This document shows positions 17,604-62,839 of a stretch of 64,000 nucleotides of DNA, one piece after another. Origin of the DNA: an uncultured Gemmatimonadota bacterium (lineage in GTDB: Bacteria; JAAXHH01). The first letter of the stretch is position 1. Each line of letters begins with the position of its first letter. The notes under the pieces were generated by a model. That model was not told the origin of the DNA. It searched no databases and was given only the letters and a program-made list of their open reading frames with translations. The stretch is taken from the NCBI GenBank assembly GCA_951812955.1, contig OX638340.1, positions 2,592,001 to 2,656,000 of the forward strand, read 5' to 3'. The position numbers and the translations under genes are program-made.

Positions 17604-18181
17604 AGAACACCCCCTGCTATGAAAACAGCTTATCCCTCAGTAGCGTCGAACCAGGGCTTGATTTCGATAAGCTGGCCGCTGCCGATCCGGAGCGTGGCCG
17701 GGTCGGCGTATGCCGGCAGGGGAGTGTTGCTTACGGGCGAGGAAGGTATGGCACCCGTGTTTTTCGAACCGTTCCGCCGCGGTGGTGTTTATGTGCGTGT
17801 TCCCGACGAGCTGCCGTCGAGCGTCTCCAGAGTTGTCCGCTCAGAAATACCTTAGACCTTTCAGCGTCGAGTAAATACATGCACGTTTCCGCGAATCTCA
17901 ATCTGTATTTGAACAGAACCGGATACCACCTGTTTGCCTGGAACGGAGTCGGCCATATGTTGTGCTTGCCATATTGTTTTCCAAGGCGCCCGGACTTCCT
18001 CGGGAGCGCCCCCACCCTGCCTATCGAGTTACTAAATCAGGTCGTACAGTTACCAAATCAGGTCATGCATTGTTAAAACACCGGTGCATGATCCGGGTTA
18101 GAGCGTTGCGACATTCGACGCGGATAATTCGACTGACCCTGATGGTTGTGGGTGCCGCGTCCATGATACACACATGGTCTT

Positions 18182-35006: not shown

Positions 35007-35367
35007 CGAACCGCACCGAACCGCACCGAACCACGTGATTGGCATCCGGTTTACGTAGGCTTCTGAGTCCGTTTCGCGATTCACCGGCATGGTTCCGCGC
35101 GGGGTCCCCCGCCTTCCGCAACCGCCCTCGATCCGCGGTCTCAACTTCCTTGACACGAGACCGCCTCATTCTATCTTAAATGATGTTACAAATCTCTGCC
35201 GTCGTACTGATTCGAGAACGACGCCACAGGGTCCCAACCAGCGCGACTCACGTCCTGACTTGATTGTTCTGAACTCCTTCGGGATCAGGGATCGGTTCGA
35301 CCGGCCCCTTGCCGCGTTGGATAGCTGCCGATGTCATTTCGGCCCCACAGGTAGACCGGATCGGTCC

Positions 35368-38444: not shown

Positions 38445-38791
38445 GCTCCCATCCTTTCTTCATCCCGCCTCCATCGTTTCGTATTTCCCGGCAGGCTCAT
38501 TTCGCCAACGATCGAATCGATAAGGGGAACTGATTCATATGGTTATGTATTCTATATATTAGACACGCATCATGCGCCGTGCCGCGCGGTCGAAGCGGTG
38601 ACCTCCCGTTCGCCGCCGTTCGGTCATTCCCGGGCGGTGCGGATGCAAATAATACTTTTGCCGGTCAACGATATGCAAATATATTGCTTGATAAATCCCG
38701 ACACAACTGTATCAACGCACCGTGGCAGGCTAATTCGATCTAGGTGCGCGCCGGCTATGCGGTGTGCCACCTTGCGCGCAGTGGAGGTTCG

Positions 38792-48740: not shown

Positions 48741-48885
48741 TGGAATTCTGGAGCACGCTCTGGACCGTGGTCTTCGTCCTGTGCCTGTTGATTTTTGCCG
48801 GCGTAGCTGTCTACGTCGGTGTAGGAGCGATCGGCGATATCAGGGCGTTGTTTAAGAGGATGGAGAGGCGGGGACCGAATTAATG
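48739..48885 (+). CDS. Small single-TM membrane protein, translationally coupled to the SSS transporter (candidate accessory subunit)
   Basis: Its ATG overlaps the SSS stop in a TGATG arrangement. 48 aa: 'MEFWSTLWTVVFVLCLLIFAGVAVYVGVGAIG...'. Confidence 0.4.
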
Positions 48886-48893
48886 GTAGTGTA

Positions 48894-49115
48894 TCAGTTT
48901 GAATCCGGCAGGGTCTTCCCTCTGTAGATGGCCAACCATTTGGCGTGAATAGCCTCCCAGTATTCGATGTCCCTGTCGATCTCGTCATCGACTGTTGTTC
49001 CCGTCCAGGGCGTTTCTCTGAGCGGCCTCAGCTTGTGCCATTCAATAAGAAACATCTGGTGTCTGGCATTCATCTTTGACGCCCAGTTAATGCGTCGTGT
49101 ATCTTGCACAGACAT
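48894..49115 (-). CDS. Hypothetical small protein (island-borne)
   Basis: 73-aa ORF at the island's left edge with no recognisable motif. Confidence 0.3.
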   Translation of the reverse strand: MSVQDTRRINWASKMNARHQMFLIEWHKLRPLRETPWTGTTVDDEIDRDIEYWEAIHAKWLAIYRGKTLPDSN

Positions 49116-49319
49116 AACCTTCTCCTTTTCGTGGGAGATCAGTGTTCGGCGGGCGCAAACGCCGTAGATGTACGAATGCCCTTACCCTGTTGCCGAAGGA
49201 CCTCGTTTCAAACTTCTGAGTACAAGAAAACCCTGTCGGCCTTACTGGTCAATCGGGTTTTTGTTTCATTGCATCTCTTAAGTTGAGTCACCTTAGTCTG
49301 ACGGATCTGCCATCGCCAC

Positions 49320-49529
49320 CTAAAATCGTGTTAGAGTGTCTCCAATTCCTCTAGCAATTTCTCTTGCCTCATCATCGTCAAATTCAATCCTGAAATCTTC
49401 AAGGCCTCTATTCGTTTTCTCGATGAGCTTGTCGCGTAGATCTTTTTCATGGAAATACCCTTTTAACAGTTGAGTTAAAAGGTGTTCGATGAACAGGAAT
49501 CTTTTGTAGAATGCCCTTACATCAGTCAA
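49320..49529 (-). CDS. Hypothetical small protein (island-borne)
   Basis: 69-aa ORF with a charged C-terminal half. Lies 49 bp downstream of the 119-aa ORF on the same strand. Confidence 0.3.
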   Translation of the reverse strand: MTDVRAFYKRFLFIEHLLTQLLKGYFHEKDLRDKLIEKTNRGLEDFRIEFDDDEAREIARGIGDTLTRF

Positions 49530-49578
49530 TGGGGTGAATCAGGTTGAAACAATTTCATCTTTTTTACTCCTTCTACGT

Positions 49579-49938
49579 TCACGATCCCTCTCGGCGCAGG
49601 GTTTCGTAATCCCTGGCCCTGTCGCCTATCTCTAACTCGGCCAGCGTGTCGTCGATTCCCGCCTGGTAGGCCTCTCCTACCTGCGAATTGAGCGACTTGA
49701 CCTCCGCTTCCAACTCATCGACTCTGTTTTGTAGTTTCTTTGACGGATCAGGTGTGTACTCTTCCCCAAACAGACGGCTGATAACCTCTTCGAAAGGACT
49801 GGTTGCCGGTTGAGTGACTGCAGGCGGAACATATCCTAAAGCAGCTCGTAATGCGCCCCCGCCTTGGATACCACCGCTGATTCGCTTTAATTTTCTTCTT
49901 GAATCATCAGCTGGTTGATTTTGTTTATTCAAAGGCAT
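49579..49938 (-). CDS. Hypothetical protein, coiled-coil (island-borne)
   Basis: 119-aa ORF with a predicted coiled-coil in the C-terminal half ('VDELEAEVKSLNSQVGEAYQ'). Confidence 0.35.
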   Translation of the reverse strand: MPLNKQNQPADDSRRKLKRISGGIQGGGALRAALGYVPPAVTQPATSPFEEVISRLFGEEYTPDPSKKLQNRVDELEAEVKSLNSQVGEAYQAGIDDTLAELEIGDRARDYETLRREGS

Positions 49939-50120
49939 GGCCTTTCTCCTTTCTAGGTGATGCCATTAACAGTTCGGCCGTTGCCACCGCCGGATGAAAT
50001 ACAAAGAGACCCATACAGATCTCCCACTCTGAGGTCTTGCTGAAAGCCTTCTTTCAAGTTAGCCCGGTCGACTTATGCGGTCATCCGGGTTTCCTGTATT
50101 GCCTGTCCTACCGATCAGTT

Positions 50121-50357
50121 CTAGGCGAAGATGATTTCTCTCACTACTCTCTCCGCGATAGCGTACGACAGACGCGATTCAACGTAGATAAAGAACCAAC
50201 CCTCATTGAAAACGATACGATCTACTTTCCGTTCCTCCCCTTCTTCAGCATGGATATCTCCCACGCTGACACTACGCCGGGCGGTAAGGAGTCCTATTCG
50301 AGATTGATCTGCCGACGGGTCTAATTCCAACTTCAAAGACGCGATGTTTCCTAGCAT
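50121..50357 (-). CDS. Hypothetical small protein (uncertain strand; overlaps the + ORF at 50037..50324)
   Basis: 78-aa ORF in an AT-rich region. It competes with an overlapping ORF on the plus strand and neither has motifs. Confidence 0.2.
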   Translation of the reverse strand: MLGNIASLKLELDPSADQSRIGLLTARRSVSVGDIHAEEGEERKVDRIVFNEGWFFIYVESRLSYAIAERVVREIIFA

Positions 50358-50386
50358 ACCATCCTCCGAAAAGCATGAGTTGACCG

Positions 50387-50408
50387 GCCCCGCCGCGCGG
50401 CGGGGCCG
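50387..50408. promoter_or_regulatory. Perfect 22-bp GC palindrome (strong hairpin) inside AT-rich island non-coding stretch
   Basis: 'ggccccgccgcgcggcggggcc' is identical to its own reverse complement. Confidence 0.5.
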
Positions 50409-51069
50409 TGATATACGGACCGTCTATCTGACTCGGATCCGTCGTGTACGAATCGTGGTCCTTACCGTGCAGGTACGGGTGACCTTTACACGGACCGGGA
50501 CGCGTCTCGTACGTACAGGACTCCTTCGAATCCTGGGCATAGTACGACCCTCCATTTTAAACAGGGCCACTTTTTTGTTGATTTCCACACGAGGGAGGGT
50601 TATAATACGGAGCGACCCTCAGAAAGCGCGCCCTGTTGGTCAATCACCTGTGGCCCGGAGTTCCCTATACTTCGGGCCACTTCTTTATAACGGTGTAATA
50701 TACCTTACGCGGCTTCGTTCGTCAACCTGTTTTGCGCATCATATTCTATCGTTTTCTTCCTGCTCCGCCGATCACCGCAACATGTTGTGTGCTACACATT
50801 TATTGACCTAATAACGGGTGTTTAGTACGTCGATAACATGCTCTTGCCGGAATCGGCTTTCTGGAGAACCTGGAGCTTGAACTCACGGAAGAACTGACGG
50901 CGTTTCAGGGACATGGGGTGTCTCCTCGTTCAGAAGGAAGCTTAACTCTGTGTCCCGTTCAACGGTGCAGTACATCATTCCTACCTAACCCCGCTTTGTT
51001 GTGACGTATACTACCGTGTACAAGCTCCGCAAAATTTGTTATGTACGTCGTGTGTAGGAGATTTCAACT

Positions 51070-51483
51070 ATGGAACAAATCGTTCCCCTATTTCTGAAAT
51101 ACGAATGGTGGCAAATAGTTGCGATTTTCCTCGCCTTGAGTGCGCCGGTCGCTGTTTACTGTATTTTTAAAAACTTCAACCTAACAGAATGGCGCAAAGC
51201 TCGAGACGAAAGGCACAGGGAACGAATGCAGTCCTGCTGTCCCCACGCTGAACGTGTATTGCAAGAAAACGGTGTAGTTTATTTCAAACCACTTATAAAC
51301 TCGTCCGTAAAAACTCGCGAAGGAGTCTGTTCCGAATGTGGAAAATCCTTTCTCCACGGCAGAACTGCCGTACTTGACACTGCAGTCCATTACGAAATGC
51401 ATATCGAAACATATCAAGAACGCGCAAAGGAATACAACACACTCGCCAAAAAATACGGTAAACGACTCCTGAACGTTAAGTAA
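51070..51483 (+). CDS. Hypothetical membrane-anchored protein with Cys4 zinc-ribbon-like motif
   Basis: N-terminal transmembrane helix. Cys pairs 'CCPH' and 'CSEC' are spaced as a possible zinc ribbon. Lies immediately upstream of hsdM. Confidence 0.45.
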   Translation: MEQIVPLFLKYEWWQIVAIFLALSAPVAVYCIFKNFNLTEWRKARDERHRERMQSCCPHAERVLQENGVVYFKPLINSSVKTREGVCSECGKSFLHGRTAVLDTAVHYEMHIETYQERAKEYNTLAKKYGKRLLNVK

Positions 51484-51740
51484 ACCTGGCCTCTGTTTTG
51501 TCCCACATTCGACAATGTCTACCCTTTTCACTTTACATTCCAAAAAAGCGCCTGACCGATAACAGTAAAGTGTGTATACTTTCCGCAGACATTCCAATCG
51601 ACTTACTTACATTAACCTTATAGATTTATATATAGTTATGTGACGTAATTCGGAACAGTTAAGCAGGTATATACAAACTTGCTTTTTAAACTGCCCGAAG
51701 ATTCTACAAGTCGTTAGACGGAATTCAAAGTAAAGGTATC

Positions 51741-54422
51741 ATGAGTCAAGACAAAATCACATTGGCCCAACTAGAGTCCTTCCTATTTAAAGCAGCCGAC
51801 ATCCTGCGCGGGAAGATGGATGCATCCGAATTTAAGGAGTTCATTTTCGGCATGCTGTTCCTGAAACGGCTCTCCGATGAGTTTGATCAAACGCGCGAAC
51901 AGTTACGCGAAAGGGTCTACGCCCACCTAGAACCCGATACAAAGGCAGGAGTGCTTGAGGATAAAACGTCCTATGGAGAGACATTTTACGTACCCGTTCG
52001 TGCACGTTGGCATGAGGAGTGGAAGGATGAGAATGGCGACTTAGTTCCAGCACTCAAGGATCTTAAGAGCGACATTGGCAATATGTTGAATAAAGCTATT
52101 GCTGCGGTCGAGGATGAGAACGACTCACTAGCAGGGGTGCTGAAGAACAACATTGACTTTAATGCTGTTAAGGGTAAGACGAAGATATCTGATCAAAGGT
52201 GGAAGGACTTACTCGATCATTTCAACCAACCTCAGTTTGTCCTGGTTAACGACAATTTTGAGTTCCCCGATCTACTCGGTGCAGCTTATGAATACCTGAT
52301 CAAGTATTTCGCGGACAGCGCAGGTAAAAAGGGAGGCGAGTTTTACACCCCCGCGGAGGTAGTGCGTCTGTTGGTTCAGCTAACCAAACCAACTGCCGGG
52401 AATGAAATCTATGACCCAGCTGTTGGTTCTGGTGGCTTTCTGATTCAGGCACACCAGTATGTCGAAGAGCAGGGTGAGGATCCCAACAATCTGGCCCTAT
52501 ATGGTCAGGATTCCAACGGCACCACCTGGTCGATCTGTAACATGAACATGATTCTTCACAACATCACGCGTTTCACGATTGAGAACGACGACACTTTGGA
52601 AAATCCTCTGATATTGCAGAATGGTCAGGTTCGAAAGTTCGACCGCGTGCTGGCCAATCCCCCATTTTCGCAGAACTACACCCGCGCCAACGTGAAATTT
52701 ACCAATCGTTTCCGAGAGTGGTGCCCAGAGACAGGCAAGAAAGCTGATCTAATGTTCGTCCAGCACATGTTGGCAAGTCTCAAAGGCGACGGCCACATGG
52801 CTACCATTATGCCTCACGGTGTCCTCTTTCGCGGAGGCAAGGAGAAGCTGATTCGGGAACTGTTGATAGACGACGATGTTATCGAGGCAATCATCAGTTT
52901 GCCTCCAGGGTTATTTTACGGGACTGGCATACCGGCTTGCGTGCTCGTTTGCGATAAGAACAAGCCCGACGAGTTGCGCGACAAAGTCTTATTCATCAAC
53001 GCAGACCGCGAGTATGCCGAAGGAAAGAATCAAAACAAGCTGCGGCCGGAGGATGTGGAGAAAATCGACTTTGTGTTCTCCAACAAACTCGAGATCCCCC
53101 AATATAGCCGGCTCGTACATAAATCAGAGATCGCCGACAAGCACGACTACAATCTGAACATTCGACGCTATGTAGATAATACCCCTAAGCCAGAGCCGGA
53201 GGACGTGCAAGCCCATCTAATCGGCGGCATCCCTGAATCTGAAGTTGCAGCGAAAGAAGATAGTTTCTCTAAGTTTGGCTTTCAGGCCAAAACGCTATTC
53301 TGCCCTGATCGACCAGGCTACCTCGCATTCAGAGAGTCGATTACAGGCAGATCGGTCATCAAAGAGATCATTGAAGGGGATCCATCGATCGTGCAGACGT
53401 TGAAAATACATCGCAATGCACTCAAGCAATGGTGGAACGTAGCCCGTGATGAATTCGCCGAGCTTGAGCATGGCAATCACAGCGGTCGAAAGATGCCCAA
53501 AGTGCGTCATGAGCTTATGAAGACACTCAAGGGTAAGCTCGTTCCGCTATGTGTACTCGACGAGTTCAAGAGTGCGGGCGTTTTCGTCAACTGGTGGCAG
53601 CAAATTCGCTATGACCTGAAGACCATTGTTTCAACAGGATGGCATCATACACTCATCCCAAAAGAATATCTGACCGCCGCGTTTTTCCAGAGTGATGCAG
53701 ATGCTATTGAGGAACTGGAGACCCGTATAGGTGAACTACAGGCAGAATTTGCTGAAGCCGTGGAAACTGCTCAAGAGGTCGCCGCGTATGAGCCGGAAGA
53801 AGATAAAACGGTAACGGCATCGGCCATTAAGACAGCTCTAACGGACCTCATTAATGACCTAAAGGATAGCACTGGCGAGTCGGCCAAGCGAGAGCTTAAC
53901 ATACTCAAGGCACAGGATGTTGCTATAAAGGACATAGAAAAGAAGATCAGGAGCAGCAAAATTTCATTAAAGAATAAGACCATGGAATTGGAAGACAAAC
54001 TCCAACTCAAGCGACTCGGAGGAGATGGATTCAAGAGCGAAAATCAGAGACTCATAGAGGAAGACGAAAGCCAGATTGCATTACTGAATCCAAGCAACAA
54101 AACTGAAAATACAAAGATCAATGCGTTAAATAAAGATATCGCTGTACTTGAGGAACGTATCGCCAAGACCCACGCGGTACTGGAGGCACTCGGTGGTTCA
54201 CTAACCGATGACGAAGCCAAGCATCTCATCCTCAAGAAGCTCTACGACATCGTGAGCACTGAATTCGAACGCTACCTCAATGCAGAGATACGTCACCTAA
54301 TTTCAGGTGTCGAAAAACTGTGGAGTAAATACGCCAGCAGCAGCCAGAAGATAGAAAGCGACCGAGAAATCACGCTCGGCCAGCTCAATGCATTTCTAAG
54401 TAGATTGGGATATATGGGATGA
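51741..54422 (+). CDS. hsdM: Type I restriction-modification system methyltransferase subunit (N6-adenine), with long coiled-coil C-terminal extension
   Basis: HsdM N-terminal domain ('[10 protein letters not shown]'-like '[17 protein letters not shown]'). AdoMet motif I '[12 protein letters not shown]'. Catalytic motif IV 'NPPFS'. At 893 aa it is longer than the ~500-800 aa typical of HsdM. Confidence 0.9.
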
Positions 54423-55618
54423 GTAAGAAATTTGAAACGCTATCGAAAATCGGTCTTCTTCGAATGGGAGAAACGATTATCGCAAAGGACTGTTCTGGAG
54501 ATGGTTTGCCAATCTATTCCGCAAATAAAGGGAACAAGCCATGGGCGCATTCCGACCACTTTAGATGCAAAAATGAAAGAGGCTGTATTGTCATAGGGGC
54601 AAGAGGAACTATTGGCTATCCACGTCTTCCGAAAGATGAACTGTTTGGCGCAACTCAAACCACAATCGTATTTTCTCCTGACAAAGATCATTTTATCCCG
54701 GAATTCCTGCACTACAGCCTGCAACAAGTTGATTTTGAGAGTCTCGGAGCACAGCAGGCAATTCCTATGCTCACTGTTTCCAATTTAGAGAACCTAACGA
54801 TTCGTTCGTTCAAAAAACCTGAACAATCTAAGATCGCCAAGATTCTTACAACGGTCGATCAGGCGATTGAACAGACCGAAGCGTTGATAGCAAAACAGCA
54901 ACGCACCAAGACCGGTCTGATGCAAGACCTGCTCACACGCGGTATCGACGAAGATGGAAACCTTCGCTCCGAAGACACCCATGAATTTAAAGATTCACCG
55001 TTTGGGCGTATTCCGGTGGAGTGGGTAGTGAAAGAACTAAGTGATTTTTGCGACGTAACATCCAGTAAACGCATATACTTACATGATTACAATACAGAAG
55101 GTATTCCGTTCTATCGTTCAAAAGAAATCATCGAACTGGTAAGGGAAGGAAAAACTCTTGGTGGATTATATATCACGAAAAGTAAGTATCTTGCAATAAA
55201 GCGCATCTTTGGAACTCCTAATAAGGGCGACGTACTCATTAGCTCAGTAGGAACTCTTGGAATTTGCTATTTGGTCAGGGACAACGATCGATTCTATTTT
55301 AAAGATGGAAATCTCATCTGGCTCCGTCGATTTCAAAAACATATGAATCGGATATTTTTAATAGAATTACTACCAAGGATGATCAATACCCAATTTGATG
55401 ATCTTGTGATTGGGACAAGTCAAAAGGCATTCACGATTGAGAAGCTTAAGCGTCTCAAGCTTTATTTCCCATCGACCGAGGAGCAGAATAGACTAGCGGT
55501 TTCTGTTCAACAGTTCCAAGCTAAAATCGATTGCGAGATACAAAGTCTGCAAAAACTCCGATTCCTCAAGACCGCTTTAATGCATGACCTCCTCACTGGC
55601 AAGGTTTCTGTCAGGTAG
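54419..55618 (+). CDS. hsdS: Type I restriction-modification specificity subunit
   Basis: Two target-recognition domains separated by conserved central and C-terminal helical repeats. The central conserved motif reads '[28 protein letters not shown]' and the C-terminal one '[20 protein letters not shown]'. Its ATG overlaps the hsdM stop in an ATGA arrangement. Confidence 0.85.
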
Positions 55619-55644
55619 TTAATCACAGAAGCGGAGAGCAGTAT

Positions 55645-58600
55645 ATGAGTAAAAACGAGTCTCCAGCGCACATTAAACTCGACGAAAGGAATCACGTTGA
55701 GAAGCCAATTCTTGATCAGCTTGAGGGTATGGGCTGGGAGATTATCGACCTCGACAGTCAGCAACTCCCTGTAGATACTCACCGCGAGACTTTATTGGAA
55801 GTTGTCATGTTCCCAGTGTTGCGTGAGCAACTCAAGGTCATCAATCCCTGGATAGAGAACGATCAGGTTGAAGAGGTCGTCAAGCAACTTTCTGCGAGTT
55901 TCCCAGGCACGGGGCTGACTGAGAGTAACAAGCATGTGCTTCATCTGCTGCTCGGAAACACAATCGTCAGTGAAAATCGGCAATCCGGTGAGAATAGCCC
56001 GACTGTGCGCTATATCGACTTCAAGAACCTGGACAACAACCGATTCATTGCAGTTTGCCAATTCAAAGTCCGCATCTTGGGCACGGAGAAACACATCATC
56101 CCGGATATCGTGTTATTCGTAAATGGTCTACCGGTGGTTGTAGTCGAGTGCAAGTCCCCTAAAGTAAAGGATGCCATCCCAGAGGCCATCGACCAGATAC
56201 TACGCTACAGCGAGCAGCGGGGTGACAAAGGCGAGGGAAGTGCTCCACTCTTTTATTACAACCAGTTTGTAGTCGCCACATGTCGCCAGGAGGCCAAGTT
56301 TGGGACGATAACCACGCATATTGAAAAACATTTTTTTCGTTGGGCTGATCCTTATCCAAAAACGCTCAATGATCTCGAGCATGGCTCTGGTACTCCAAAC
56401 GATCAGCAGCGCCTGGTCGCTGGGATGATGGCTAAAGATAACCTGCTCGATCTCATTCGCACCTTCACTCTGTTTTCAACCAACGATAAAGGTCAGACCA
56501 TTAAGATCGTCGGACGATATCAGCAGTACCGCGCGGTCAAAATCGCTGTTAAGCGTCTCATGGAAGGCGCGACCCCACGGGAACGCAGCGGCATCATCTG
56601 GCACACTCAGGGATCCGGTAAATCGCTGACCATGATGTTTATGGTGCGTGAGATGTACCAACAACCGAAACTGGCAAGCTGGAAAGTGGTATTCGTCACT
56701 GATCGGACACAACTCGAAAATCAGTTGAGCGAGACCAGCCAAAGCATTGGGTTCACAGTGAAGACGGCGAACAAGATCAGCGAGTTGAAGGAACTCCTGA
56801 GCACTGATACGTCGGATTTGGTCATGGGTATGATCCACAAATTTCAAGAAGACGATCTTGAAGAGACCTTCCCACAGCTAAACGACAGCCCCAATATACT
56901 GGTCATGACTGATGAAGCTCACCGTTCTCAATACAAGCTACTTGGTGCGAATCTTGACAGAGCTATACCCAATGCTGCAAAAATCGGCTATACAGGCACT
57001 CCGATTGATAAGACAGAGCAAGTCTTTGGCGACTACATCGACAAATATACCATGCGGCAGTCCATAGACGATGGTGTGACTTTGGAGATAGTCTATGAAG
57101 GTCGCACTCACAACGCGGAAGTCTCTGACCAGGAAGGTATGGATGAGGCGTTCACTGATGTGTTCAGCGATTACAACATTGAGGAAAGACTTGCAATCCT
57201 TGGCTACGGTACCCGAAGAGCCTATCTGGAAGCAGAAACAACGATTGAAGCCAAAGCCAAGGATATGATTAATCACTACCTGAAGCATGTATATCCGAAT
57301 GGCTACAAGGCACAGATTGTAGCCACTTCTCGGGAGGCTGCTGTCCGCTACAAGAAGCACGTAGACAATACCCTTGAAGCTTCAATTGCTGATCTGGAAA
57401 AATCAAATCCAAATGGTCTTGATTTGGATCTGTTAAAGTCTATTGAGACAGATGTAGTGATTTCTGGGGAAGGAAACGATTTAAGTCATCTAAAAACATA
57501 CTCAAACCCGACCAAGCACGAGAGTAGCATCAAAAGTTTCAAGATGGATTTCGGTGGTGAAGTTGACGGTCTTCATGGAAACATGGGAATACTTATTGTC
57601 AATAACATGCTTATCACGGGATTCGACGCCCCTGTAGAACAGGTTATGTATTTGGACAAAGTCATTTTTGGCCACAACTTGTTGCAGGCCATCGCAAGGG
57701 TAAATCGTGTTGCAGGTGAGGCCAAGGGTAAAGGCTTTGTAATCGATTATGTTGGGATTGGTCATAACCTAAAGAGGGCAATTGATCTTTATGATAAGAA
57801 AGAAAAGAACGAAATCATCGATACACTTGTTTTTCCTGAAGAAGCATTGCGTGAATTGGAGGATAGCCATGCCGAGATCTTAGCTTTTCGGGAAGCGAAC
57901 GGCTTAGAGGAATTGGCAGACTTGGATGCATATTACGATGTGTTTTATGATGAGGCACTACGTTTTGAATACATGCAGTCTTTCAAGAAGTTCACTAGGA
58001 ATCTGAATTCAGTGTTCCCAGCTAGGCAGGCTTTGGAATACATGGACGAATATAATGTATACGCTGAAATCAACACACTTGCTGGAAAGCATTTTAGAGA
58101 TGAACGATTAAGTATGAAGGGAATCCCACCGAAGCTCCTCGCAATCACAGACAAGTACTTGGTGTCAGAAGGTATACATCAGCAGGTCAAACCAGTCTCA
58201 ATTTTGGACGATTCATTCCAAGAATCTGTTAACAGCCATACACGTACAAAGACAAAAGCAGCTGAAATCGAGCATGCTATTCGACACCACCTAGATGTAG
58301 AATTGAATGACGATCCAGATTTGCAGGCATCCTTTGCAGAAGCGCTTGCTAAAATACTGCAAGAGTTCAAGGACAATTGGAGCAAGGTTTACGAGGAATT
58401 GGAGAAGTTACGACAGCGTATCATCAACGTTAGTAAAGAGCCCACATATGGGCTTAGTCGAAAAAAACAGATGCCATTCTTTCGATGTTACAAAAGGGAG
58501 ATGTTTGGCGAAAATGAGCTTAATGAAGATGAGATTTCACTTCTTGTCGACTTAACTAAGCAGGTATTTTCTGTGATAGAACTTGAGCTGAAGTTGATTG

Positions 58601-58773
58601 GTTTTTGGGAAAGCATTTCTGCACGCAACAAACTAAGGGCTGAAATTCAGAAAAAACTGCTTGGATCTACTTACGCGGCATTACCACACATAGTAGAGAA
58701 AAAAGACAGCATTATCAGCCGCACGATGGAGATCGCGGAGAAGAACAACGATATCATACTTTATGCGGAATAA
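55645..58773 (+). CDS. hsdR: Type I restriction enzyme endonuclease/helicase subunit
   Basis: HsdR N-terminal nuclease domain ('VVECK'). SF2 helicase motifs: Walker A 'HTQGSGKS' and DEAH-box 'MTDEAHRS'. 1042 aa. Confidence 0.9.
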   Translation: MSKNESPAHIKLDERNHVEKPILDQLEGMGWEIIDLDSQQLPVDTHRETLLEVVMFPVLREQLKVINPWIENDQVEEVVKQLSASFPGTGLTESNKHVLHLLLGNTIVSENRQSGENSPTVRYIDFKNLDNNRFIAVCQFKVRILGTEKHIIPDIVLFVNGLPVVVVECKSPKVKDAIPEAIDQILRYSEQRGDKGEGSAPLFYYNQFVVATCRQEAKFGTITTHIEKHFFRWADPYPKTLNDLEHGSGTPNDQQRLVAGMMAKDNLLDLIRTFTLFSTNDKGQTIKIVGRYQQYRAVKIAVKRLMEGATPRERSGIIWHTQGSGKSLTMMFMVREMYQQPKLASWKVVFVTDRTQLENQLSETSQSIGFTVKTANKISELKELLSTDTSDLVMGMIHKFQEDDLEETFPQLNDSPNILVMTDEAHRSQYKLLGANLDRAIPNAAKIGYTGTPIDKTEQVFGDYIDKYTMRQSIDDGVTLEIVYEGRTHNAEVSDQEGMDEAFTDVFSDYNIEERLAILGYGTRRAYLEAETTIEAKAKDMINHYLKHVYPNGYKAQIVATSREAAVRYKKHVDNTLEASIADLEKSNPNGLDLDLLKSIETDVVISGEGNDLSHLKTYSNPTKHESSIKSFKMDFGGEVDGLHGNMGILIVNNMLITGFDAPVEQVMYLDKVIFGHNLLQAIARVNRVAGEAKGKGFVIDYVGIGHNLKRAIDLYDKKEKNEIIDTLVFPEEALRELEDSHAEILAFREANGLEELADLDAYYDVFYDEALRFEYMQSFKKFTRNLNSVFPARQALEYMDEYNVYAEINTLAGKHFRDERLSMKGIPPKLLAITDKYLVSEGIHQQVKPVSILDDSFQESVNSHTRTKTKAAEIEHAIRHHLDVELNDDPDLQASFAEALAKILQEFKDNWSKVYEELEKLRQRIINVSKEPTYGLSRKKQMPFFRCYKREMFGENELNEDEISLLVDLTKQVFSVIELELKLIGFWESISARNKLRAEIQKKLLGSTYAALPHIVEKKDSIISRTMEIAEKNNDIILYAE

Positions 58774-58776
58774 CTG

Positions 58777-59460
58777 ATGAACGTGGACTATACAGTAAAG
58801 CGATCGCATAAGCGAAAGAAGCTGACAATTACAGTTGAGCGTGACCGGCAGGTTGTGATCTCCGCTCCCGAGTCAACTTCTGAGGAGGCAATTAGAAGAT
58901 ACATCGAATCGAAACGCCAGTGGATTTACGAGAAGTTGAATCACCTGCAGAAATACGAAACTCAACCTCATCCGCCTGGTAAGGAATTAGTAAATGGTGA
59001 ATCTACGCTTTATCTTGGCTCCGAGTATCAGATCCAGATTATCACTAGCAGTACGACTGAGATACGATTAGAGCAACGTTTTCTAGTTCCGAATTCTTTG
59101 GCGGGAGAAAGAAGGAAGGTATTTCAAAAATGGTATGTCGACCGGGCTAAAGAGAACATATTACCAAAAGTAAAATCGTTCGCCAGTATGCTCGGAGTGG
59201 AGTTTGCCAATGCGAAGATCATGGATAGTCGCTACCGTTGGGGCTCTTGTACAATCAAAGACAACATCAACTTAAACTGGCGTTTAATTAAAGCACCTAT
59301 GTTCGTAATCGACTATGTAGTAGTTCACGAACTCGCACATCTGATGGAGGCAAACCACACCTCTCGATTCTGGAATATCGTTAGGACGCACGCACCATTG
59401 ATGGAAAAGGCTCAAAGATGGCTTAAAGAAAATGGCCAGATACTCGAACAGGATATCTAG
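58777..59460 (+). CDS. DUF45/YgjP-like (WLM/M48-like) zinc metallopeptidase, often found with Type I RM loci
   Basis: HExxH motif 'VVHELAHLME'. Starts 3 nt after the hsdR stop. Confidence 0.75.
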   Translation: MNVDYTVKRSHKRKKLTITVERDRQVVISAPESTSEEAIRRYIESKRQWIYEKLNHLQKYETQPHPPGKELVNGESTLYLGSEYQIQIITSSTTEIRLEQRFLVPNSLAGERRKVFQKWYVDRAKENILPKVKSFASMLGVEFANAKIMDSRYRWGSCTIKDNINLNWRLIKAPMFVIDYVVVHELAHLMEANHTSRFWNIVRTHAPLMEKAQRWLKENGQILEQDI

Positions 59461-59525
59461 CGCGCAGTTCGAATAAACCAGTATCAGGTATTAACTGAAT
59501 CGTCGATTCATCCGCTTTTTTTAGA

Positions 59526-59921
59526 TTATCCGCATCCGCACACCAGCGCCTTACCCTCGGTGGCCTGCAGCCCCTCGGTTTCGTAGCCGTCCCGCATCCA
59601 CCAGTCCAGCCCGCCAATTAGTTCCTTTACGTTGAAACCCAACCTCGCCATGTTGAGCGCGCCCTTGGTCGACGCGTTGCAACCGATCCCATCGCAATAG
59701 GTTACGTACAGTGATTTTTTGTTCAGGTCGGCCGTGGAATCGGGATCCATGGTCCGGTGGGGAATGTTAACGGAGCCGGGGATATGCCGTTCGGTGTACG
59801 CTTCGGCGGACCGCGTGTCCACTACGACGATGTCATTGCCCAGGGTGATGGATTCCCACAGGTCGTAGGCATCGATCTCGTATTTCAGCTTACTCTCGTA
59901 GTGGGTAATCTGGTCTTTCAT
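59526..59921 (-). CDS. Rhodanese-like single-domain sulfurtransferase
   Basis: Active-site loop 'YCDGIGCNAS'. Start at 'MKDQ' (59921). The ORF as called runs to 59966. GC is intermediate (~55%). Confidence 0.7.
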   Translation of the reverse strand: MKDQITHYESKLKYEIDAYDLWESITLGNDIVVVDTRSAEAYTERHIPGSVNIPHRTMDPDSTADLNKKSLYVTYCDGIGCNASTKGALNMARLGFNVKELIGGLDWWMRDGYETEGLQATEGKALVCGCG

Positions 59922-60271
59922 TGTGCCTCTAACTGGTATGAGCCAAAGTGGGTGGTTCTGCGACACATCTATCTTAGGGAATACAAGAAGCTACCCAGCT
60001 CATTTCTAGTATAACAAATTAGCGTGCTGGATAGTGTATTCGTCTCAATTCTTCTTTAGGTTTATAACGCGGTTGGAATTTCTATACACGGCCATCAAGC
60101 CGAAAAATCCAGTTTATATTAGGAGTTGTGTCTGAAACTTCGGACCTATGGCGGGCATTACTCGCGAGGATTTGTAAATCTTTATATAAAACTAAACTCA
60201 AGTTACTCGCCCAATCTATCGATTAATGGTTTCATCTTAGCAGTTGATGTTTAATCTGAAATGAATGGATA

Positions 60272-61018
60272 TCAATGGACAAGAGCTTGAAACTCTTTCC
60301 CATTCATAGGCTTGTGTTTCGTCCAGCTTCCGCTCATTTCAACCAGGATTCGCTGCATCCATGAGTATGAATCAGAGGTGTAGATTTTCAGCACTCTAGC
60401 TTTGTATTCGGGATGTTCTTTCATAGCTTTAGTTAAATCATAAACCAAGTAACGAGGTGACCAACCAATCATGTGATAATCTAAAGTCTGGATTTGAACT
60501 GCCACCTTTGATACAGGATTGGTTAGTTCCAAGGTTACATACAACGGTTCATCTTCCTCTAATTTACTTAATCGGTTCTTTGCCGGTTTATTGATATGTC
60601 GAGTTCCGTGAAGAAAAAACCGGCACGTAAAGCTACCATCCGCTTCCTTGCGGATTTTCGGAAACACCTCATATGAATCAGTTACACGATTACCTCCATT
60701 AATGGATAGGATCTCAATTGGATCTGCTTCGTCACAGAGATCAAACCCCTTAAGGTAGTCCTCAAATTCTGGCCTCGATCGATTCAGAATTCGATTCTTA
60801 AATAACGGAAACAACTCCTTTGATGTATATTCATGGTCGAAACTAGGGAATTCAACCAGTGGAGCGAATCGTGCTTTTTCCATTGCCCGTTTTGCGCCGT
60901 AGATATAACGAAACTTAAAGAAAGGTTCGTTGATATCGGCATCAAGTCGACCTACGGGATACCATTCTCGGGTTGTTACCTGATCTTGCCAAGCAAGAAA
61001 AAGTGTTCTGAAGTTCAC
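60272..61018 (-). CDS. Hypothetical 248-aa protein, translationally coupled partner of the HipA-like kinase
   Basis: GTG start overlapping the kinase stop in a GTGA arrangement. No recognisable motif. AT-rich codon usage like the rest of the island. Confidence 0.5.
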   Translation of the reverse strand: MNFRTLFLAWQDQVTTREWYPVGRLDADINEPFFKFRYIYGAKRAMEKARFAPLVEFPSFDHEYTSKELFPLFKNRILNRSRPEFEDYLKGFDLCDEADPIEILSINGGNRVTDSYEVFPKIRKEADGSFTCRFFLHGTRHINKPAKNRLSKLEEDEPLYVTLELTNPVSKVAVQIQTLDYHMIGWSPRYLVYDLTKAMKEHPEYKARVLKIYTSDSYSWMQRILVEMSGSWTKHKPMNGKEFQALVH

Positions 61019-61905
61019 GAATCTATCTCCAATAGTTTTTGACGGTTATATAACATTAAATTCATTGCGAATTGTCGGGCGTGTATGCTCATCCAATCAT
61101 CTGGAATACGATTAACGATTTCCTCAAGGCTGCTTATGTCAAGTTGGTAGAGTCTTTGCAAAACGGAACTAAAAGACTCCGGTAGTTCATTGAATGTAGT
61201 GCGCACGACGCCAAGGGGGCTTAGCCCTCTAGTGTCTTCGCTAGACCTGTAAATCGGGCTTCGACCTTTTTCGGCATATTGTCCAACTCTATCCTCATCT
61301 AACAATCGAATACGCCTGTCATCATCGATTTCTCTTCCCAGAGACGATGCGTGGTCATATGACGGTGCCATAGTTTTCGACACCATAGAAAAATCCATCA
61401 AAACTCCCCAGTTTTCGTGATGTCGATCAGTGTTTCCAATAAACGCATCTAAGATTATGTATTCACAGAAAGTTTGTTTTGCACTATCGGCTTTTTCTTG
61501 TTCAAATACTGTCTCAAGAACGCTCCAGATATTAAAGATGGTATGGTCTGATTGCTTTTGTGTCTTTTCTGGCTCATATTCATTAAATATAAAACTCAGA
61601 AGTTGGTTACCATGAATCAGTTCATGGTAACGATCGGTAAATGACTTGGTAGCTGTTCCTTTGGTTTGCCTGAAAACGGCTAATTCGACGATTGCATGTG
61701 GGATATTGAGTAATTCTGCAACTTCAGATGCAACCTTTTCAGCCCAATGTTCGCCCCTACTCTCTCGATGGTATTTAAAAAGCCATAGTTCATCTTCAGA
61801 TTCGGATCGATTGAACCAGAATTTAGGTTTGCTTCCCATTTCTTCCTGAAGATACTGGTCTTCCTTAATTTCCTCGATCTGATAGTCATTCAACTTCCGC
61901 CCCAT
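61015..61905 (-). CDS. HipA-family (HipA_C-like) Ser/Thr kinase, short form lacking the HipA N-terminal subdomain
   Basis: 'GSKPKFWF' resembles the Gly-rich ATP-binding loop of HipA. The catalytic motif 'ILDAFIGNTDRHHENWG' matches the HipA/CtkA 'GNxDxHxxN' pattern, and 'APSYDHAS' matches HipA 'xPxYDxxS'. Confidence 0.6.
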   Translation of the reverse strand: MGRKLNDYQIEEIKEDQYLQEEMGSKPKFWFNRSESEDELWLFKYHRESRGEHWAEKVASEVAELLNIPHAIVELAVFRQTKGTATKSFTDRYHELIHGNQLLSFIFNEYEPEKTQKQSDHTIFNIWSVLETVFEQEKADSAKQTFCEYIILDAFIGNTDRHHENWGVLMDFSMVSKTMAPSYDHASSLGREIDDDRRIRLLDEDRVGQYAEKGRSPIYRSSEDTRGLSPLGVVRTTFNELPESFSSVLQRLYQLDISSLEEIVNRIPDDWMSIHARQFAMNLMLYNRQKLLEIDS

Positions 61906-62439
61906 TTTTCTCGGTCTATGTCATTGGGCCTTAACATCCTGTTTTGCAATATCCAATGCGATGTTTGTTTTTTACGGTCCATCCCCAGTCACTAATGCGT
62001 CCACTTATGGCCTTTGGACAGATAAATTGCATGTCCTCGGTTTCCTCGGCTCGGTAGGAATCCTGCCGACTTGGACCACACGTCATTTCACGTCTGAGTG
62101 GCGGTTTTCACGACATGGCCCTCCAGTATGTGTCATTTCCTTATTTAACGCTATTAAACCAAAAAGTACCAGATGAACTGCAGGTGCTCCTCCAACTTGT
62201 CTGAGCACGTTCAATAGATCTCGATCATAATTTCGACTAAGTCTACGACAGTCATCCGTATTTCGCAATCCTTTCTCAAGCCGTAGAGCGGTGAAGTTAC
62301 GATCAGTTTTGAAACTGTCGTCTGGGAAAATTGCTATATATGTAAAATGTCTTCGTAGACTAGGTTTAGCGAAAAACTAATTACATCACGACTAGACTTG
62401 TCTGTGGATTTGCCATCATAGTCTGGCAATTTTCACCAA

Positions 62440-62457
62440 TGTCTACCCAGGTAGACA
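62440..62457. promoter_or_regulatory. 18-bp inverted repeat, candidate operator upstream of the HipA-like operon
   Basis: 'tgtctacc ca ggtagaca' has perfect 8-bp arms. It lies about 535 bp upstream of the kinase start on the minus strand, in an AT-rich leader. Confidence 0.3.
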
Positions 62458-62839
62458 CATACTCTGGGTGACTCCTTTCGGGATGAAGGCGGACAGGTCC
62501 GCCCTGTCCGACCGAACATAAATCTTTGTTCGGTATTGCAATTATACGGTTTTCCGGGGGCCATAGCAATACTAAATTGAACAGGTACTATTCAGATGCG
62601 ATTTCTAATTGATACACATCCGCGTGTTGATCAGTACAGGTCAATATACTGGTCAATACCGTCTTGCTGTCTTGACCGTACAGCACTTCTTTTTCTAAGC
62701 ATTCCCACGCTTACTATAGAAAGTGTTTCAGTTTCTTTGGCGAACCATTTCCGTCAAATCGGTGATAATTCACCTCCATCGACAACAGGGGTAATCTCAC
62801 ATTTCTGCTAATTACCTAAGCCTTAAAACCACCATCCAG

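What the first reader, a model, noticed from the sequence alone, without database searches (positions are those of the whole stretch)
48890..62822. About 14-kb AT-rich island inserted in a high-GC chromosome: a defence island without a visible mobility gene
GC falls from ~65-68% to ~40-45% at about 48.9 kb and returns abruptly at 62.82 kb. The island carries hsdM-hsdS-hsdR-DUF45, a rhodanese, a HipA-like kinase pair and several orphan small ORFs. This is the typical signature of horizontally acquired defence cargo. No integrase, recombinase, tRNA or obvious flanking direct repeats are visible in the window. The right edge lands exactly at the 5' end of a permease ORF that lacks a start codon, suggesting insertion into or next to that gene.
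Basis: seen in the sequence. Interest (0 to 1): 0.7.

Follow-up and report, generated by a model that had tools for sequence, protein, structure and literature searches.

The report
Integrase-free defence-gene hotspot, two slots
The AT-rich 14-kb block is real, but it is at least three foreign modules (a type I restriction system, a HipA-like kinase toxin-antitoxin pair, orphan genes with a transposon scar) in two slots either side of a native rhodanese gene, at a locus that holds different cargo or none in about twenty related genomes: a known kind of mobility-gene-free defence hotspot.

Summary
The GC drop is real. Flanks are 61.6 ± 2.5 % GC and the block is about 45.7 %. Tetranucleotide distance from the host is 0.52-0.70, against 0.13 ± 0.01 for host chunks.

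It is not a single island. Relatives (marine-invertebrate-associated Latescibacterota/Gemmatimonadota MAGs) keep the order SSF symporter, 47-aa peptide, rhodanese(-), DASS permease. The rhodanese (59526-59921) is therefore native (GC3 0.76, 82-88 % nt identity to relatives).

Foreign DNA fills two slots:
- Slot 1 (48884-59525) holds orphan ORFs, a 131-bp IS3 scar (50844-50974), and o137-hsdM-hsdS-hsdR-YgjP.
- Slot 2 (about 59960-62620) holds a hipI kinase plus hipN (HIRAN) pair, which matches hipIN and PADLOC candidate PDC-M03.

The closest genomes (94-96 % nt in the flanks) are empty (L001) or carry an LRR protein plus a degraded IS3 (L002). Others carry Mrr, a Dcm/Z1 cluster, Doc toxins or unknown genes. 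One genome at about 87 % identity has the same R-M and hipIN modules.

The permease is not disrupted. Native sequence runs at least 160 nt upstream of it, and relatives without any insertion also lack a canonical start codon.

The window holds no integrase, tRNA or flanking repeats. The best analogues are the E. coli immigration control region and the P. aeruginosa core defence hotspots. Turnover by homologous recombination and IS activity is inferred, not shown. This is a new member of a known kind, of moderate interest.

The parts
47217..48883 (+). Left anchor, native core genes: the SSF sodium:solute symporter (47217-48740) and a 47-aa membrane peptide (48740-48883).
   Evidence: Pfam SSF, E 1e-31. 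Both are syntenic in 20 related genomes, at 90-99 % aa identity for SSF. Nucleotide homology to the relatives ends at 48864-48877.
48884..50843 (-). Module 1a: about 2 kb of orphan small ORFs. These are o73 (48894-49115), o69 (49320-49529), o119 (49579-49938) and o78 (50121-50357), followed by about 0.5 kb with no convincing ORF.
   Evidence: None hits Pfam, NCBIfam or PADLOC above threshold (o119 has only a sub-threshold Trimer_CC match, 16 bits against a cut-off of 27). In PHROGs, o119 has one marginal hit (E 0.003, unknown function) and the others none. o119 has 5 relatives among 1.84 billion representative proteins. The module is absent from L085, which otherwise shares the island. tblastx found no match in any of the 169 fetched loci. 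GC is about 0.48.
50844..50974 (-). IS3-family scar: the left terminal inverted repeat (terminus TGTACTGCACC...), the leader, and the first 23 or so codons of orfA (MSLKRRQFFREFKLQVLQKADSGKS...), followed by an early stop.
   Evidence: 88 % nt identity to L002 8616-8746. There the element continues into HTH_Tnp_1 and frameshifted rve ORFs. The window, L002 and L012 share the same terminus in three different contexts. It lies 5-15 nt from where homology to L085 and L088 begins.
50975..59525 (+). Module 1b, a type I R-M cassette: orphan o137 (51070-51483), hsdM (51741-54422, 893 aa), hsdS (54419-55618), hsdR (55645-58773) and a YgjP/DUF45 metallopeptidase (58777-59460).
   Evidence: Pfam, PADLOC and NCBIfam hits. 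Motifs are visible in the translations: NPPF, GSGGF, ECK, GSGKS and DEAH. The module is colinear in L085, L081, L087 and L088 at 79-91 % nt per gene. The hsdM-to-ygjP core also occurs in an unrelated context, L082.
59526..59921 (-). Native rhodanese gene (131 aa), the anchor that separates the two slots.
   Evidence: Pfam Rhodanese. It is present at this position in 13 relatives at 82-86 % nt identity, with fragments in 3 more. GC is 0.57 and GC3 0.76. Its tetranucleotide distance lies within the host range for its size.
59922..62620 (-). Module 2: hipN (60272-61018; a HIRAN C-terminal domain, N-terminal half unassigned) and hipI (61015-61905; a short HipA-like kinase), plus flanking non-coding DNA that includes a hairpin-rich stretch at 62440-62550. 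The slot edges are approximate, at about 59960 and about 62620.
   Evidence: PADLOC PDC-M03A E 3e-87 and PDC-M03B E 3e-72. Pfam HipA_C E 9e-13 and HIRAN E 8e-5. The pair is shared with L083 (hipN 91.7 % nt) and L084 but not with L081. GC is 0.418. Fold z-scores are -4.3 and -5.1.
62621..64000 (+). Right anchor, native: the DASS/SLC13 permease with its promoter and 5' region. The conserved TCTTGAC box is at about 62660, the probable ATT start at 62801 and the conserved N-terminus starts at 62822. The gene runs off the window.
   Evidence: Homology to L021 starts at 62661 and to L008 at 62795. The upstream region was aligned across relatives. N-termini were compared. L083's orthologue carries Pfam Na_sulph_symp.

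Best explanation
The region is a hypervariable hotspot with no integrase. It lies between conserved core genes of a roughly 62 % GC bacterium, probably sponge- or coral-associated, whose nearest public genomes are labelled Latescibacterota or Gemmatimonadota. The ancestral layout is SSF symporter, 47-aa peptide, rhodanese (opposite strand), DASS permease. Foreign AT-rich DNA accumulates in two slots: between the converging 3' ends of the peptide and rhodanese genes, and between the rhodanese start and the permease promoter.

In this genome slot 1 holds:
- (a) about 2 kb of orphan ORFs, ending in the scar of an IS3-family element;
- (b) an intact-looking type I R-M operon (HsdM2S methylates a bipartite site; HsdR translocates and cuts unmodified DNA), with a co-transcribed YgjP-like metallopeptidase and a lineage-restricted upstream ORF.

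Slot 2 holds a hipIN-type module: a short HipA-like Ser/Thr kinase toxin, followed by a partner with a DNA-end-binding HIRAN domain. This is the PADLOC candidate defence system PDC-M03. It presumably works by abortive infection through phosphorylation of a translation factor.

Shown: the anatomy, the foreign composition, the native status of the rhodanese, the variable and empty states in relatives, and the modular distribution.

Inferred: cargo is gained, swapped and lost mainly by homologous recombination through the conserved flanks and within the cassettes, with IS3 elements contributing rearrangements and deletions often clipping the rhodanese. Also inferred: both systems are active in defence.
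For: Anchors and slots:
- tblastn and blastn against 22 related loci show the conserved gene order and where homology stops and resumes.
- Empty slot 1 is only 4-10 nt in L006, L008, L015 and L021.
- Five genomes have both slots empty and an intact rhodanese.
- Nine carry other cargo: L007 has Mrr_cat plus Dcm, HATPase_c_3, Z1 and DUF4420. L003 and L014 have a Pfam-confirmed Fic/Doc toxin, and L030 has a homologous insert seen in the sequence. L013 has a PDC-M19A-like gene. L002 and L014 have LRR/Big_2-type proteins. L012, L017 and L018 have unknown genes.
- Eight have the rhodanese truncated or missing.

Foreign composition.

Modularity:
- L085 has 1b and 2 but not 1a or the IS scar.
- L081 shares the hsdR-ygjP-rhodanese junction in one 4.36-kb alignment at 88.7 %, but its slot 2 holds DUF6575 and a 125-aa gene.
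- L084 has hipIN.

Patchy phylogenetic distribution:
- The window's nearest genomes, L001 and L002 (94-96 % nt), lack the island.
- L083's nearest genomes, L007, L008 and L018 (92-93 %), lack it too.

Hints of recombination:
- Window versus L001: SSF 95.0 %, but the rhodanese remnant 85.6 % and the DASS 5' 500 nt 90.4 %, returning to 94.4 % further on. The intergenic regions cannot be aligned.
- hipN is 91.7 % identical to L085, against 82.8 % for the adjacent rhodanese and 86-88 % for the core.
- hsdM is 86.4 % identical to a cassette in an unrelated context, L082, as close as to its own relatives at 79-89 %.
- TRD shuffling in HsdS.
- HsdR is 73-90 % identical to proteins labelled Gammaproteobacteria, Chloroflexota, Paenibacillus and Desulfogranum.

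IS3 remnants occur at this locus in three genomes.

Literature:
- hipIN architecture and its proposed abortive-infection role: PMC8262856.
- Integrase-free hotspots with a proposed homologous-recombination route: PMC10250203 and PMC12707154.
Against: - No recombination event is demonstrated directly.
- The window-to-L085 divergence of the R-M module (85-87 %) matches the core divergence (86-88 %). That fits old vertical inheritance with repeated loss as well as it fits exchange.
- The excess divergence near the junctions against L001 rests on short segments (118-500 nt). It partly reflects faster-evolving sequence: small47 and the rhodanese also diverge faster than SSF among all relatives.
- The cargo is not exclusively defensive. 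LRR/Big_2 proteins and several unknowns occupy the same slots.
- Activity of the R-M system and of hipIN is untested.
- The HipS-like N-terminal domain expected in HipN could not be detected here.
- All genomes are MAGs or metagenome contigs.
Confidence: 0.75

Rival explanations
1. The AT-rich block was already present in the common ancestor of this clade. It has been inherited vertically and only deleted or overwritten in most descendants. There has been no ongoing exchange among relatives.
For: - Window versus L085: the island genes are 84-87 % identical, similar to the core flanks at 86-88 %.
- The hsdR-ygjP-rhodanese junction is identical in the window, L081 and L085.
- Partial rhodanese remnants in L001, L004 and L019 look like deletion scars.
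Against: - L001's state cannot come from the window's by deletion alone. Its rhodanese remnant is only 85.6 % identical where the flanks are 95 %, and its rhodanese-DASS spacer is a different, unalignable allele.
- hipN is 91.7 % identical, against 82.8 % for the neighbouring rhodanese.
- hsdM is as close to an unrelated-context cassette (L082) as to those of relatives.
- At least nine different cargos sit in the same slots.
- The block's composition has not drifted toward the host's.
Confidence: 0.17
2. This is a single 14-kb genomic island, inserted once by a site-specific recombinase or as part of a larger mobile element. The integrase and att repeats have since decayed.
For: - The block is compositionally distinct along its whole length.
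- A related R-M cassette lies next to a tyrosine recombinase in another genome, L082.
- An IS3 scar shows past mobile-element activity.
Against: - A native rhodanese gene lies inside the block.
- The three modules occur independently in relatives.
- There is no integrase, tRNA or repeats.
- None appears within 10 kb of either flank in the syntenic genome L083/L085.
Confidence: 0.04
3. This is an assembly or binning artefact: a chimeric contig joining AT-rich DNA of another organism to a high-GC genome.
For: The source is evidently a metagenome-derived genome, since all relatives are MAGs. The GC steps are abrupt.
Against: - The same junctions recur in independent assemblies: the NCBI MAG VXMB01000014.1 (L083/L085), a Logan assembly of SRR9841447 (L086), and ENA long-read contigs (L081, L088).
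- Native sequence lies on both sides and in the middle.
- Gene boundaries are respected at every junction.
Confidence: 0.02

Closest known systems
Enterobacterial immigration control region (ICR; the variable locus between yjiA and yjiN holding hsdRMS, mcrBC, mrr or gmrSD)
   Same: - A variable segment of about 10-15 kb sits between conserved anchor genes.
- It is dominated by type I R-M and other restriction genes.
- An 'empty site' exists in a relative (E. coli C there, L001 and L006 here).
- Cassettes are replaced with no integrase or att sites.
- Source: review PMC12707154.
   Different: - The phylum and the anchors differ (SSF symporter, rhodanese, DASS permease).
- Here there are two separate slots around a small native gene that is itself often clipped.
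- The cargo also includes a hipIN kinase module, Doc toxins and eukaryote-like LRR proteins.
- The evidence is from MAGs only.
Core defence hotspots cDHS1/cDHS2 of Pseudomonas aeruginosa (Johnson et al. 2023, PMC10250203)
   Same: - They are defined by consistent flanking core genes.
[quoted passage not shown]
- Their GC is atypical and their content is very diverse between strains.
- Transfer by transduction plus homologous recombination through the conserved flanks has been proposed.
   Different: - The hotspot here is much smaller (0-14 kb against 1-224 kb).
- Comparisons here are between species of about 80-95 % identity, not strains of one species.
- The fraction of recognisable defence systems is lower.
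hipIN toxin-antitoxin modules (Gerdes, Baerentsen and Brodersen 2021, PMC8262856), equivalent to PADLOC candidate PDC-M03
   Same: - A short kinase of 296 aa lacks HipA N-subdomain 1 and retains the catalytic motifs.
- A downstream overlapping gene carries a C-terminal HIRAN domain.
- Both proteins give full-length hits to PDC-M03A and PDC-M03B.
   Different: - No member has been characterised experimentally: Table 1 of the paper lists 'None' for clade XI.
- The HipS-like N-domain was not verifiable here.
- The host lineage was not sampled in that study.
Classical tRNA-linked, integrase-borne genomic or defence island
   Same: Atypical GC, defence cargo and variable presence among relatives.
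   Different: No integrase, no tRNA or tmRNA target, no direct repeats, and not a single contiguous unit.

Membership tests
Type I restriction-modification system | HsdM: HsdM_N plus an N6-adenine methyltransferase domain with AdoMet-binding and NPPF motifs | tested here: met
   Pfam N6_Mtase E 9e-104 and HsdM_N E 2e-29. TIGR00497 scores 257 bits against a cut-off of 243. PADLOC MTase_I E 5e-282. DPAVGSGGF and LANPPFS are present in the translation.
Type I restriction-modification system | HsdS with two target-recognition domains | tested here: met
   Pfam Methylase_S matches two stretches. PADLOC Specificity_I E 6e-53. TRDs are swapped between otherwise homologous cassettes.
Type I restriction-modification system | HsdR: N-terminal PD-(D/E)xK nuclease, SF2 motor and C-terminal domain | tested here: met
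   Pfam HSDR_N, SWI2_SNF2, ResIII, T1R_D3-like and T1RH-like_C. PADLOC REase_I E 9e-126 over residues 9-1018. VVECK, GSGKS and DEAH are present in the translation.
Type I restriction-modification system | Sequence-specific m6A methylation and ATP-dependent restriction | not testable with these tools
   Needs methylome or biochemical data.
hipIN TA module / PADLOC PDC-M03 | Short HipA-like kinase (279-321 aa) lacking N-subdomain 1, with core kinase motifs | tested here: met
   296 aa. Pfam HipA_C E 9e-13 starting at residue 24. PDC-M03A E 3e-87 over residues 7-294. GNTDRHHENW and APSYD are in the translation. The closest solved structure is CtkA, E 1e-6. The size criterion comes from PMC8262856.
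hipIN TA module / PADLOC PDC-M03 | Downstream partner with a C-terminal HIRAN domain | tested here: met
   PDC-M03B E 3e-72 over residues 3-246. Pfam HIRAN matches residues 130-226 at E 8e-5, but 22.8 bits is just under the 24.7-bit gathering cut-off. The two genes overlap by 4 nt.
hipIN TA module / PADLOC PDC-M03 | HipS-like N-terminal domain in HipN | tested here: inconclusive
   Residues 1-125 gave no Pfam or PDB sequence hit even at E 10. The single-sequence AlphaFold model was unusable, at pLDDT 37.6.
hipIN TA module / PADLOC PDC-M03 | Kinase toxicity neutralised by the partner; protection against phage | not testable with these tools
   No experimental report was found in the library.
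Integrase-free defence hotspot between core genes (ICR / cDHS type) | Same conserved anchor genes on both sides in related genomes | tested here: met
   up3, SSF, small47 and DASS are syntenic in 20 of 22 close loci; the other two are contig-limited.
Integrase-free defence hotspot between core genes (ICR / cDHS type) | Content differs between relatives, including empty sites | tested here: met
   Inserts range from 0 to 10.6 kb. At least nine distinct cargos were seen, and five genomes are fully empty.
Integrase-free defence hotspot between core genes (ICR / cDHS type) | Cargo enriched in defence systems | tested here: met
   Defence-type cargo: type I R-M, PDC-M03, Mrr_cat, the Dcm/Z1/DUF4420 cluster, Doc toxins and a PDC-M19A-like gene. 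The cargo is not exclusively defensive: LRR/Big_2 proteins and unknowns are also present.
Integrase-free defence hotspot between core genes (ICR / cDHS type) | No hallmark genes of a self-mobile element | tested here: met
   No integrase, recombinase or transposase domain in any window ORF tested. Only a 131-bp IS3 scar remains.
Integrase-free defence hotspot between core genes (ICR / cDHS type) | Exchange by homologous recombination through the flanks | tested here: inconclusive
   Identity drops near the junctions against L001. There are discordant per-gene identities and mosaic cassettes. No formal recombination test was possible.
Classical integrase/tRNA genomic island | Integrase, tRNA or tmRNA target, flanking direct repeats, one contiguous unit | tested here: not met
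   No tRNA. No integrase. Only 7-mers are shared at the junctions, with P about 0.4 by shuffling. A native rhodanese gene lies inside the block.
IS3-family insertion sequence | orfA (HTH_Tnp_1) plus orfB (rve) between terminal inverted repeats that begin with TG | tested here: not met
   The window keeps only one terminus and about 23 orfA codons. The homologous element in L002 has HTH_Tnp_1 and rve, both frameshifted.

The most novel reading that the evidence does not exclude
The two slots may form a dedicated cassette-exchange site. AT-rich defence modules would circulate through it among co-resident symbionts of different phyla. The adjacent systems might also be functionally coupled: the HIRAN domain of HipN would sense DNA ends produced when the neighbouring type I enzyme (or a phage) cuts DNA, and would release the HipI kinase as a second, abortive layer. 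Support is weak: hsdM is 86 % nt identical to a cassette in an unrelated genome from the same kind of sample, and HsdR has 73-90 % aa relatives under the names of several phyla. The hairpin-rich leader (62440-62550), which has its own promoter-like site upstream of hipI, could be part of that control.
Probability: 0.08. Interest if true: 0.6.

Novelty: new member of a known kind. Interest (0 to 1): 0.35.

Why it matters
It shows that mobility-gene-free defence hotspots are not confined to well-studied Proteobacteria. They also occur in an uncultivated lineage of marine-invertebrate symbionts. These communities are reported to be enriched in R-M systems and eukaryote-like repeat proteins that move laterally (PMC8163846).

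The roughly twenty comparable genomes, each with a different state at one small locus, make a compact natural dataset. It could be used to ask how such hotspots turn over without integrases.

It also gives a genomic context for the untested hipIN/PDC-M03 candidate system. For annotation, it warns that one GC trough can hide native genes and several independent insertions.

Tried and rejected
- Exact-sequence look-ups of the SSF protein and of the 100 % identical o137 record (P0241) found no stored contig, so the source genome could not be named. Cluster data say only that it is a 3.81-Mb contig in NCBI/ENA.
- Rfam at E ≤ 1 over 47-64 kb gave one spurious miRNA hit.
- The direct and inverted repeat searches at the junctions gave only chance-level 7-mers.
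- The single metagenome scan, using the rhodanese as query, returned only distant homologues (at most 69 % identity) and no new hotspot copies.
- The viral-contig scans gave a 26 % hipI relative and nothing for o119. There is therefore no evidence that the cargo is phage-borne, although both hipIN proteins match PHROG families.
- The single-sequence AlphaFold model of HipN was too poor to use (pLDDT 37.6), so no fold search was run.
- The HipS-like domain was not detectable by Pfam or PDB sequence search.
- I considered that the permease had lost its start codon to the insertion. I rejected this because relatives without an insertion share the trait.
- I considered 'type A/type B' alleles of the rhodanese-DASS spacer as proof of import from a specific donor clade. 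I dropped it as over-interpretation, because L083's spacer does not match L008's either.

Full report
**Observation**

The compositional trough is real and far beyond chance.
- One-kb windows outside 48.9-62.8 kb average 0.616 GC (sd 0.025, minimum 0.547). Windows inside average 0.457 (maximum 0.502), a z of about -6.5.
- At 200-nt resolution the fall lies at 48.7-49.2 kb and the rise at 62.8-62.9 kb.
- Tetranucleotide L1 distance from the rest of the window is 0.52, 0.63 and 0.70 for the three foreign segments. Host 5-kb chunks give 0.130 ± 0.013.
- GC3 is 0.37-0.64 in the block's genes and 0.73-0.88 in the neighbours.
- ARAGORN finds no tRNA or tmRNA anywhere in the window.

**Gene content**

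- hsdM (51741-54422, 893 aa), hsdS (54419-55618), hsdR (55645-58773) and a YgjP-like/DUF45 metallopeptidase (58777-59460) form a tight plus-strand operon. All four give strong hits, and the catalytic motifs are visible in the translations.
- On the minus strand lie a rhodanese (59526-59921) and an overlapping gene pair. One is a 296-aa HipA_C kinase (61015-61905). The other is a 248-aa protein with a C-terminal HIRAN-like domain (60272-61018).
- This pair is not two kinases. It matches the PADLOC candidate system PDC-M03 over the full length of both proteins (E 3e-87 and 3e-72).
- It has the architecture that Gerdes et al. named hipIN: a short kinase lacking HipA N-subdomain 1, followed by HipN (HipS-like plus HIRAN), proposed to sense DNA ends and trigger abortive infection. 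No member has been tested (PMC8262856).
- The ORFs from 48894 to 51483 have no significant family hits in any library. o119 has five relatives among 1.84 billion representative proteins. o137 has four among 5.8 billion, and each of the three whose context could be retrieved sits directly upstream of this same hsdM cassette.

**Comparative evidence**

This changes the picture. A scan of one genome per species using the permease fragment returned about twenty close relatives. All are MAGs labelled Latescibacterota, Gemmatimonadota or simply 'bacterium'. Several have names that I recognise from sponge and coral studies; that recognition is my own inference.

tblastn and blastn show a conserved order: adenylosuccinate-lyase-like gene, SSF symporter, 47-aa peptide, rhodanese (minus strand), DASS permease.

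The rhodanese is therefore native.
- It sits at this position in 13 relatives at 82-86 % nt identity, with fragments in three more.
- Its GC (0.57), GC3 (0.76) and tetranucleotide profile are host-like.

Homology to relatives stops at 48864-48877. It reappears only for 59526-59921/59940, and resumes at 62661 (L021), 62795 (L008) or about 62810-62822 (others).

The block is thus two insertion slots: slot 1 at 48884-59525 (10.6 kb, GC 0.462) and slot 2 at about 59960-62620 (2.7 kb, GC 0.418).

**The locus is a hotspot**
- Five relatives have both slots empty. In L006, L008, L015 and L021 the two convergent stop codons are 4-10 nt apart.
- Other relatives carry different AT-rich cargo of 0.7-6.9 kb:
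  - an Mrr-type nuclease plus a Dcm/HATPase_c_3/Z1/DUF4420 cluster (L007);
  - Doc/Fic toxins (L003 and L014 by Pfam; L030 has a homologous insert);
  - a four-gene unknown set with a PDC-M19A-like protein (L013);
  - single unknown genes (L012, L017, L018);
  - large LRR/Big_2 proteins (L002, L014).
- Eight genomes have a truncated or missing rhodanese, which looks like collateral damage from deletions.
- The window's nearest genomes, L001 and L002, are 94-96 % identical in the flanks. L001 is empty apart from a 118-bp rhodanese remnant. L002 holds an LRR protein plus a degraded IS3.

**Modularity of the window's cargo**
- A Gemmatimonadetes MAG (GCA_009841265.1; loci L083 and L085) has core flanks 86-88 % identical to the window. 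It carries SSF, peptide, o137, hsdMSR, ygjP, rhodanese, hipN, hipI and DASS in the same order and with the same GC step.
- It lacks the window's left 2 kb (module 1a) and the IS scar.
- Its own closest relatives, L007, L008 and L018 (92-93 %), lack the island.
- ENA contig L081 shares hsdR, ygjP and the rhodanese in a single 4.36-kb alignment at 88.7 %, junction included. Its slot 2 holds a DUF6575 gene and a 125-aa gene instead of hipIN.
- L084 has hipIN.
- The hsdM-to-ygjP core also occurs in a quite different context of about 50 % GC, next to a tyrosine recombinase (L082). Homology runs exactly from the hsdM start to the ygjP stop.
- Per-gene identities disagree with one another. Against L085, hipN is 91.7 % while the adjacent rhodanese is 82.8 %. 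hsdM is 86.4 % identical to L082, against 79-89 % to relatives.
- HsdS shares one TRD with L085 and none with the others.
- HsdR has 73-90 % aa relatives under the names of several phyla.

**Mobility traces**

No ORF in the block has an integrase, recombinase or transposase domain. The junctions share only chance-level 7-mers.

Window 50844-50974 is 88 % identical to part of L002. There it forms the end of an IS3-family element: HTH_Tnp_1 orfA and a frameshifted rve orfB. The window keeps the terminal repeat (TGTACTGCACC...), the leader and about 23 orfA codons.

The same terminus bounds homology in the window, L002 and L012, in three different contexts. The scar abuts the left edge of the R-M module: homology to L088 and L085 begins 5-15 nt away. 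IS3 elements have therefore hit this hotspot at least three times. One probably mediated the junction between modules 1a and 1b. That last point is inference.

**The permease**

- About 160-200 nt upstream of 62822 are homologous to the permease upstream region of L021, L008, L083 and L084. This stretch includes a TCTTGAC box conserved in nearly all relatives.
- In this frame, no ATG, GTG or TTG lies between the stop at 62792 and the conserved LKTTIQWIGLIAGP block. The same holds for L008, as read from its residues, and L021, L010 and L001 have no Met there either. All four have no insertion next to the permease.
- A conserved Ile codon (ATT at 62801) lies 9 nt downstream of a G-rich, Shine-Dalgarno-like box. 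It is a plausible non-canonical start. This is inference.

**Mechanism**

Function of the cargo follows from family knowledge.
- The type I enzyme methylates or cuts according to the HsdS-specified bipartite site.
- The YgjP-like peptidase is a frequent but unexplained companion of hsdR. This is my recollection of COG1451 in the defence-island literature. Here it travels with the cassette even into unrelated genomes.
- HipI is presumably a growth-arresting kinase held in check by HipN.

How the DNA arrived is inferred.
- The best fit is replacement of the whole inter-anchor segment, or of sub-modules, by homologous recombination through the conserved flanks and within conserved cassette genes. 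IS3 activity and deletions would add to this.
- This route has been proposed for the P. aeruginosa core defence hotspots (PMC10250203). The enterobacterial ICR shows the same anchor-plus-variable-cassette pattern (PMC12707154).
- Supporting hints versus L001: SSF 95.0 %, small47 84 %, rhodanese remnant 85.6 %, DASS 5' 90.4 %, DASS 3' 94.4 %, and an unalignable spacer.
- These segments are short and partly fast-evolving, so I rate the recombination step as likely but unproven.
- The main rival is ancient vertical presence with repeated loss. It fits the equal divergence of the R-M module and the core genome against L085. It does not explain the discordant identities or L001's foreign-looking remnant.

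**Verdict**

- The feature is an ordinary but nicely resolved example of an integrase-free defence and accessory-gene hotspot, in a lineage where this has not been described to my knowledge.
- It is a new member of a known kind and of moderate interest (0.35).
- The most novel reading still open is functional coupling of the R-M system with the HIRAN-sensing hipIN module, together with cross-phylum cassette circulation. I give it about 8 %.

Noticed in passing
window 62792-62830; L008, L021, L010 and L001 around 9970-10000: The DASS permease has no canonical start codon upstream of its conserved N-terminus, either in the window or in several relatives without insertions. A conserved Ile codon (ATT/ATC/ATA) sits 7-9 nt after a G-rich Shine-Dalgarno-like box (AGGxGG in relatives, GGGG in the window). 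This suggests a non-canonical start in this clade.
   Followed up: partly
window 62440-62569: Three or four consecutive hairpins occupy 62440-62550 (MFE about -44 kcal/mol; z -4.3 on the plus strand, -5.1 on the minus strand). A minus-strand TTGCTA-17-TATAAT promoter-like site lies just upstream, about 530 nt before hipI. The stretch is conserved in L083, absent in L084, and has no Rfam match. It may be a leader or a small RNA.
   Followed up: partly
window 51070-51483 (o137): This is an orphan 137-aa ORF with an N-terminal hydrophobic stretch and Cys/His-containing motifs. Only four homologues exist among 5.8 billion proteins. Each of the three whose context could be retrieved lies directly upstream of this hsdM cassette in this lineage. 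It may be a lineage-specific accessory or regulator of the R-M system.
   Followed up: partly
window 63270-63500: A Gly/Asn/Ser-rich low-complexity insert in the DASS permease contains imperfect 26-nt direct repeats. It is hypervariable among relatives: identity falls to 27-79 % here, against about 95 % further downstream.
   Followed up: no
L002 2672-7564; L014 5401-6636 and 6332-9886: In two relatives the same hotspot carries large proteins instead of defence genes. L002 has a 1630-aa protein with LRR, Big_2 and M66-peptidase domains by Pfam. L014 has a 411-aa protein that looks LRR/Ig-like by eye (not scanned) and a 1184-aa protein with no Pfam hit. These are the eukaryote-like repeat proteins typical of sponge symbionts. 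The hotspot is therefore not defence-specific.
   Followed up: partly
window 54419-55618 versus L085, L081/L088, L087 and L082: HsdS target-recognition domains are shuffled between otherwise homologous cassettes. The window and L085 share TRD1 only (55 % aa overall). All other pairs are about 33 %. This implies at least four specificities among five cassettes.
   Followed up: yes
L001 9599-9714; L004 9687-9766; L019 9551-9699: Rhodanese pseudogene fragments remain in genomes whose slots are empty. L001 keeps the 5' part; L004 and L019 keep the 3' part. This suggests that cargo loss happens through deletions that overrun the anchor gene.
   Followed up: partly
window 8001-9000, 17001-19000, 35001-36000, 38001-40000: There are milder GC dips (0.55-0.59) elsewhere in the window. 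They were not examined and could be further small accessory inserts.
   Followed up: no
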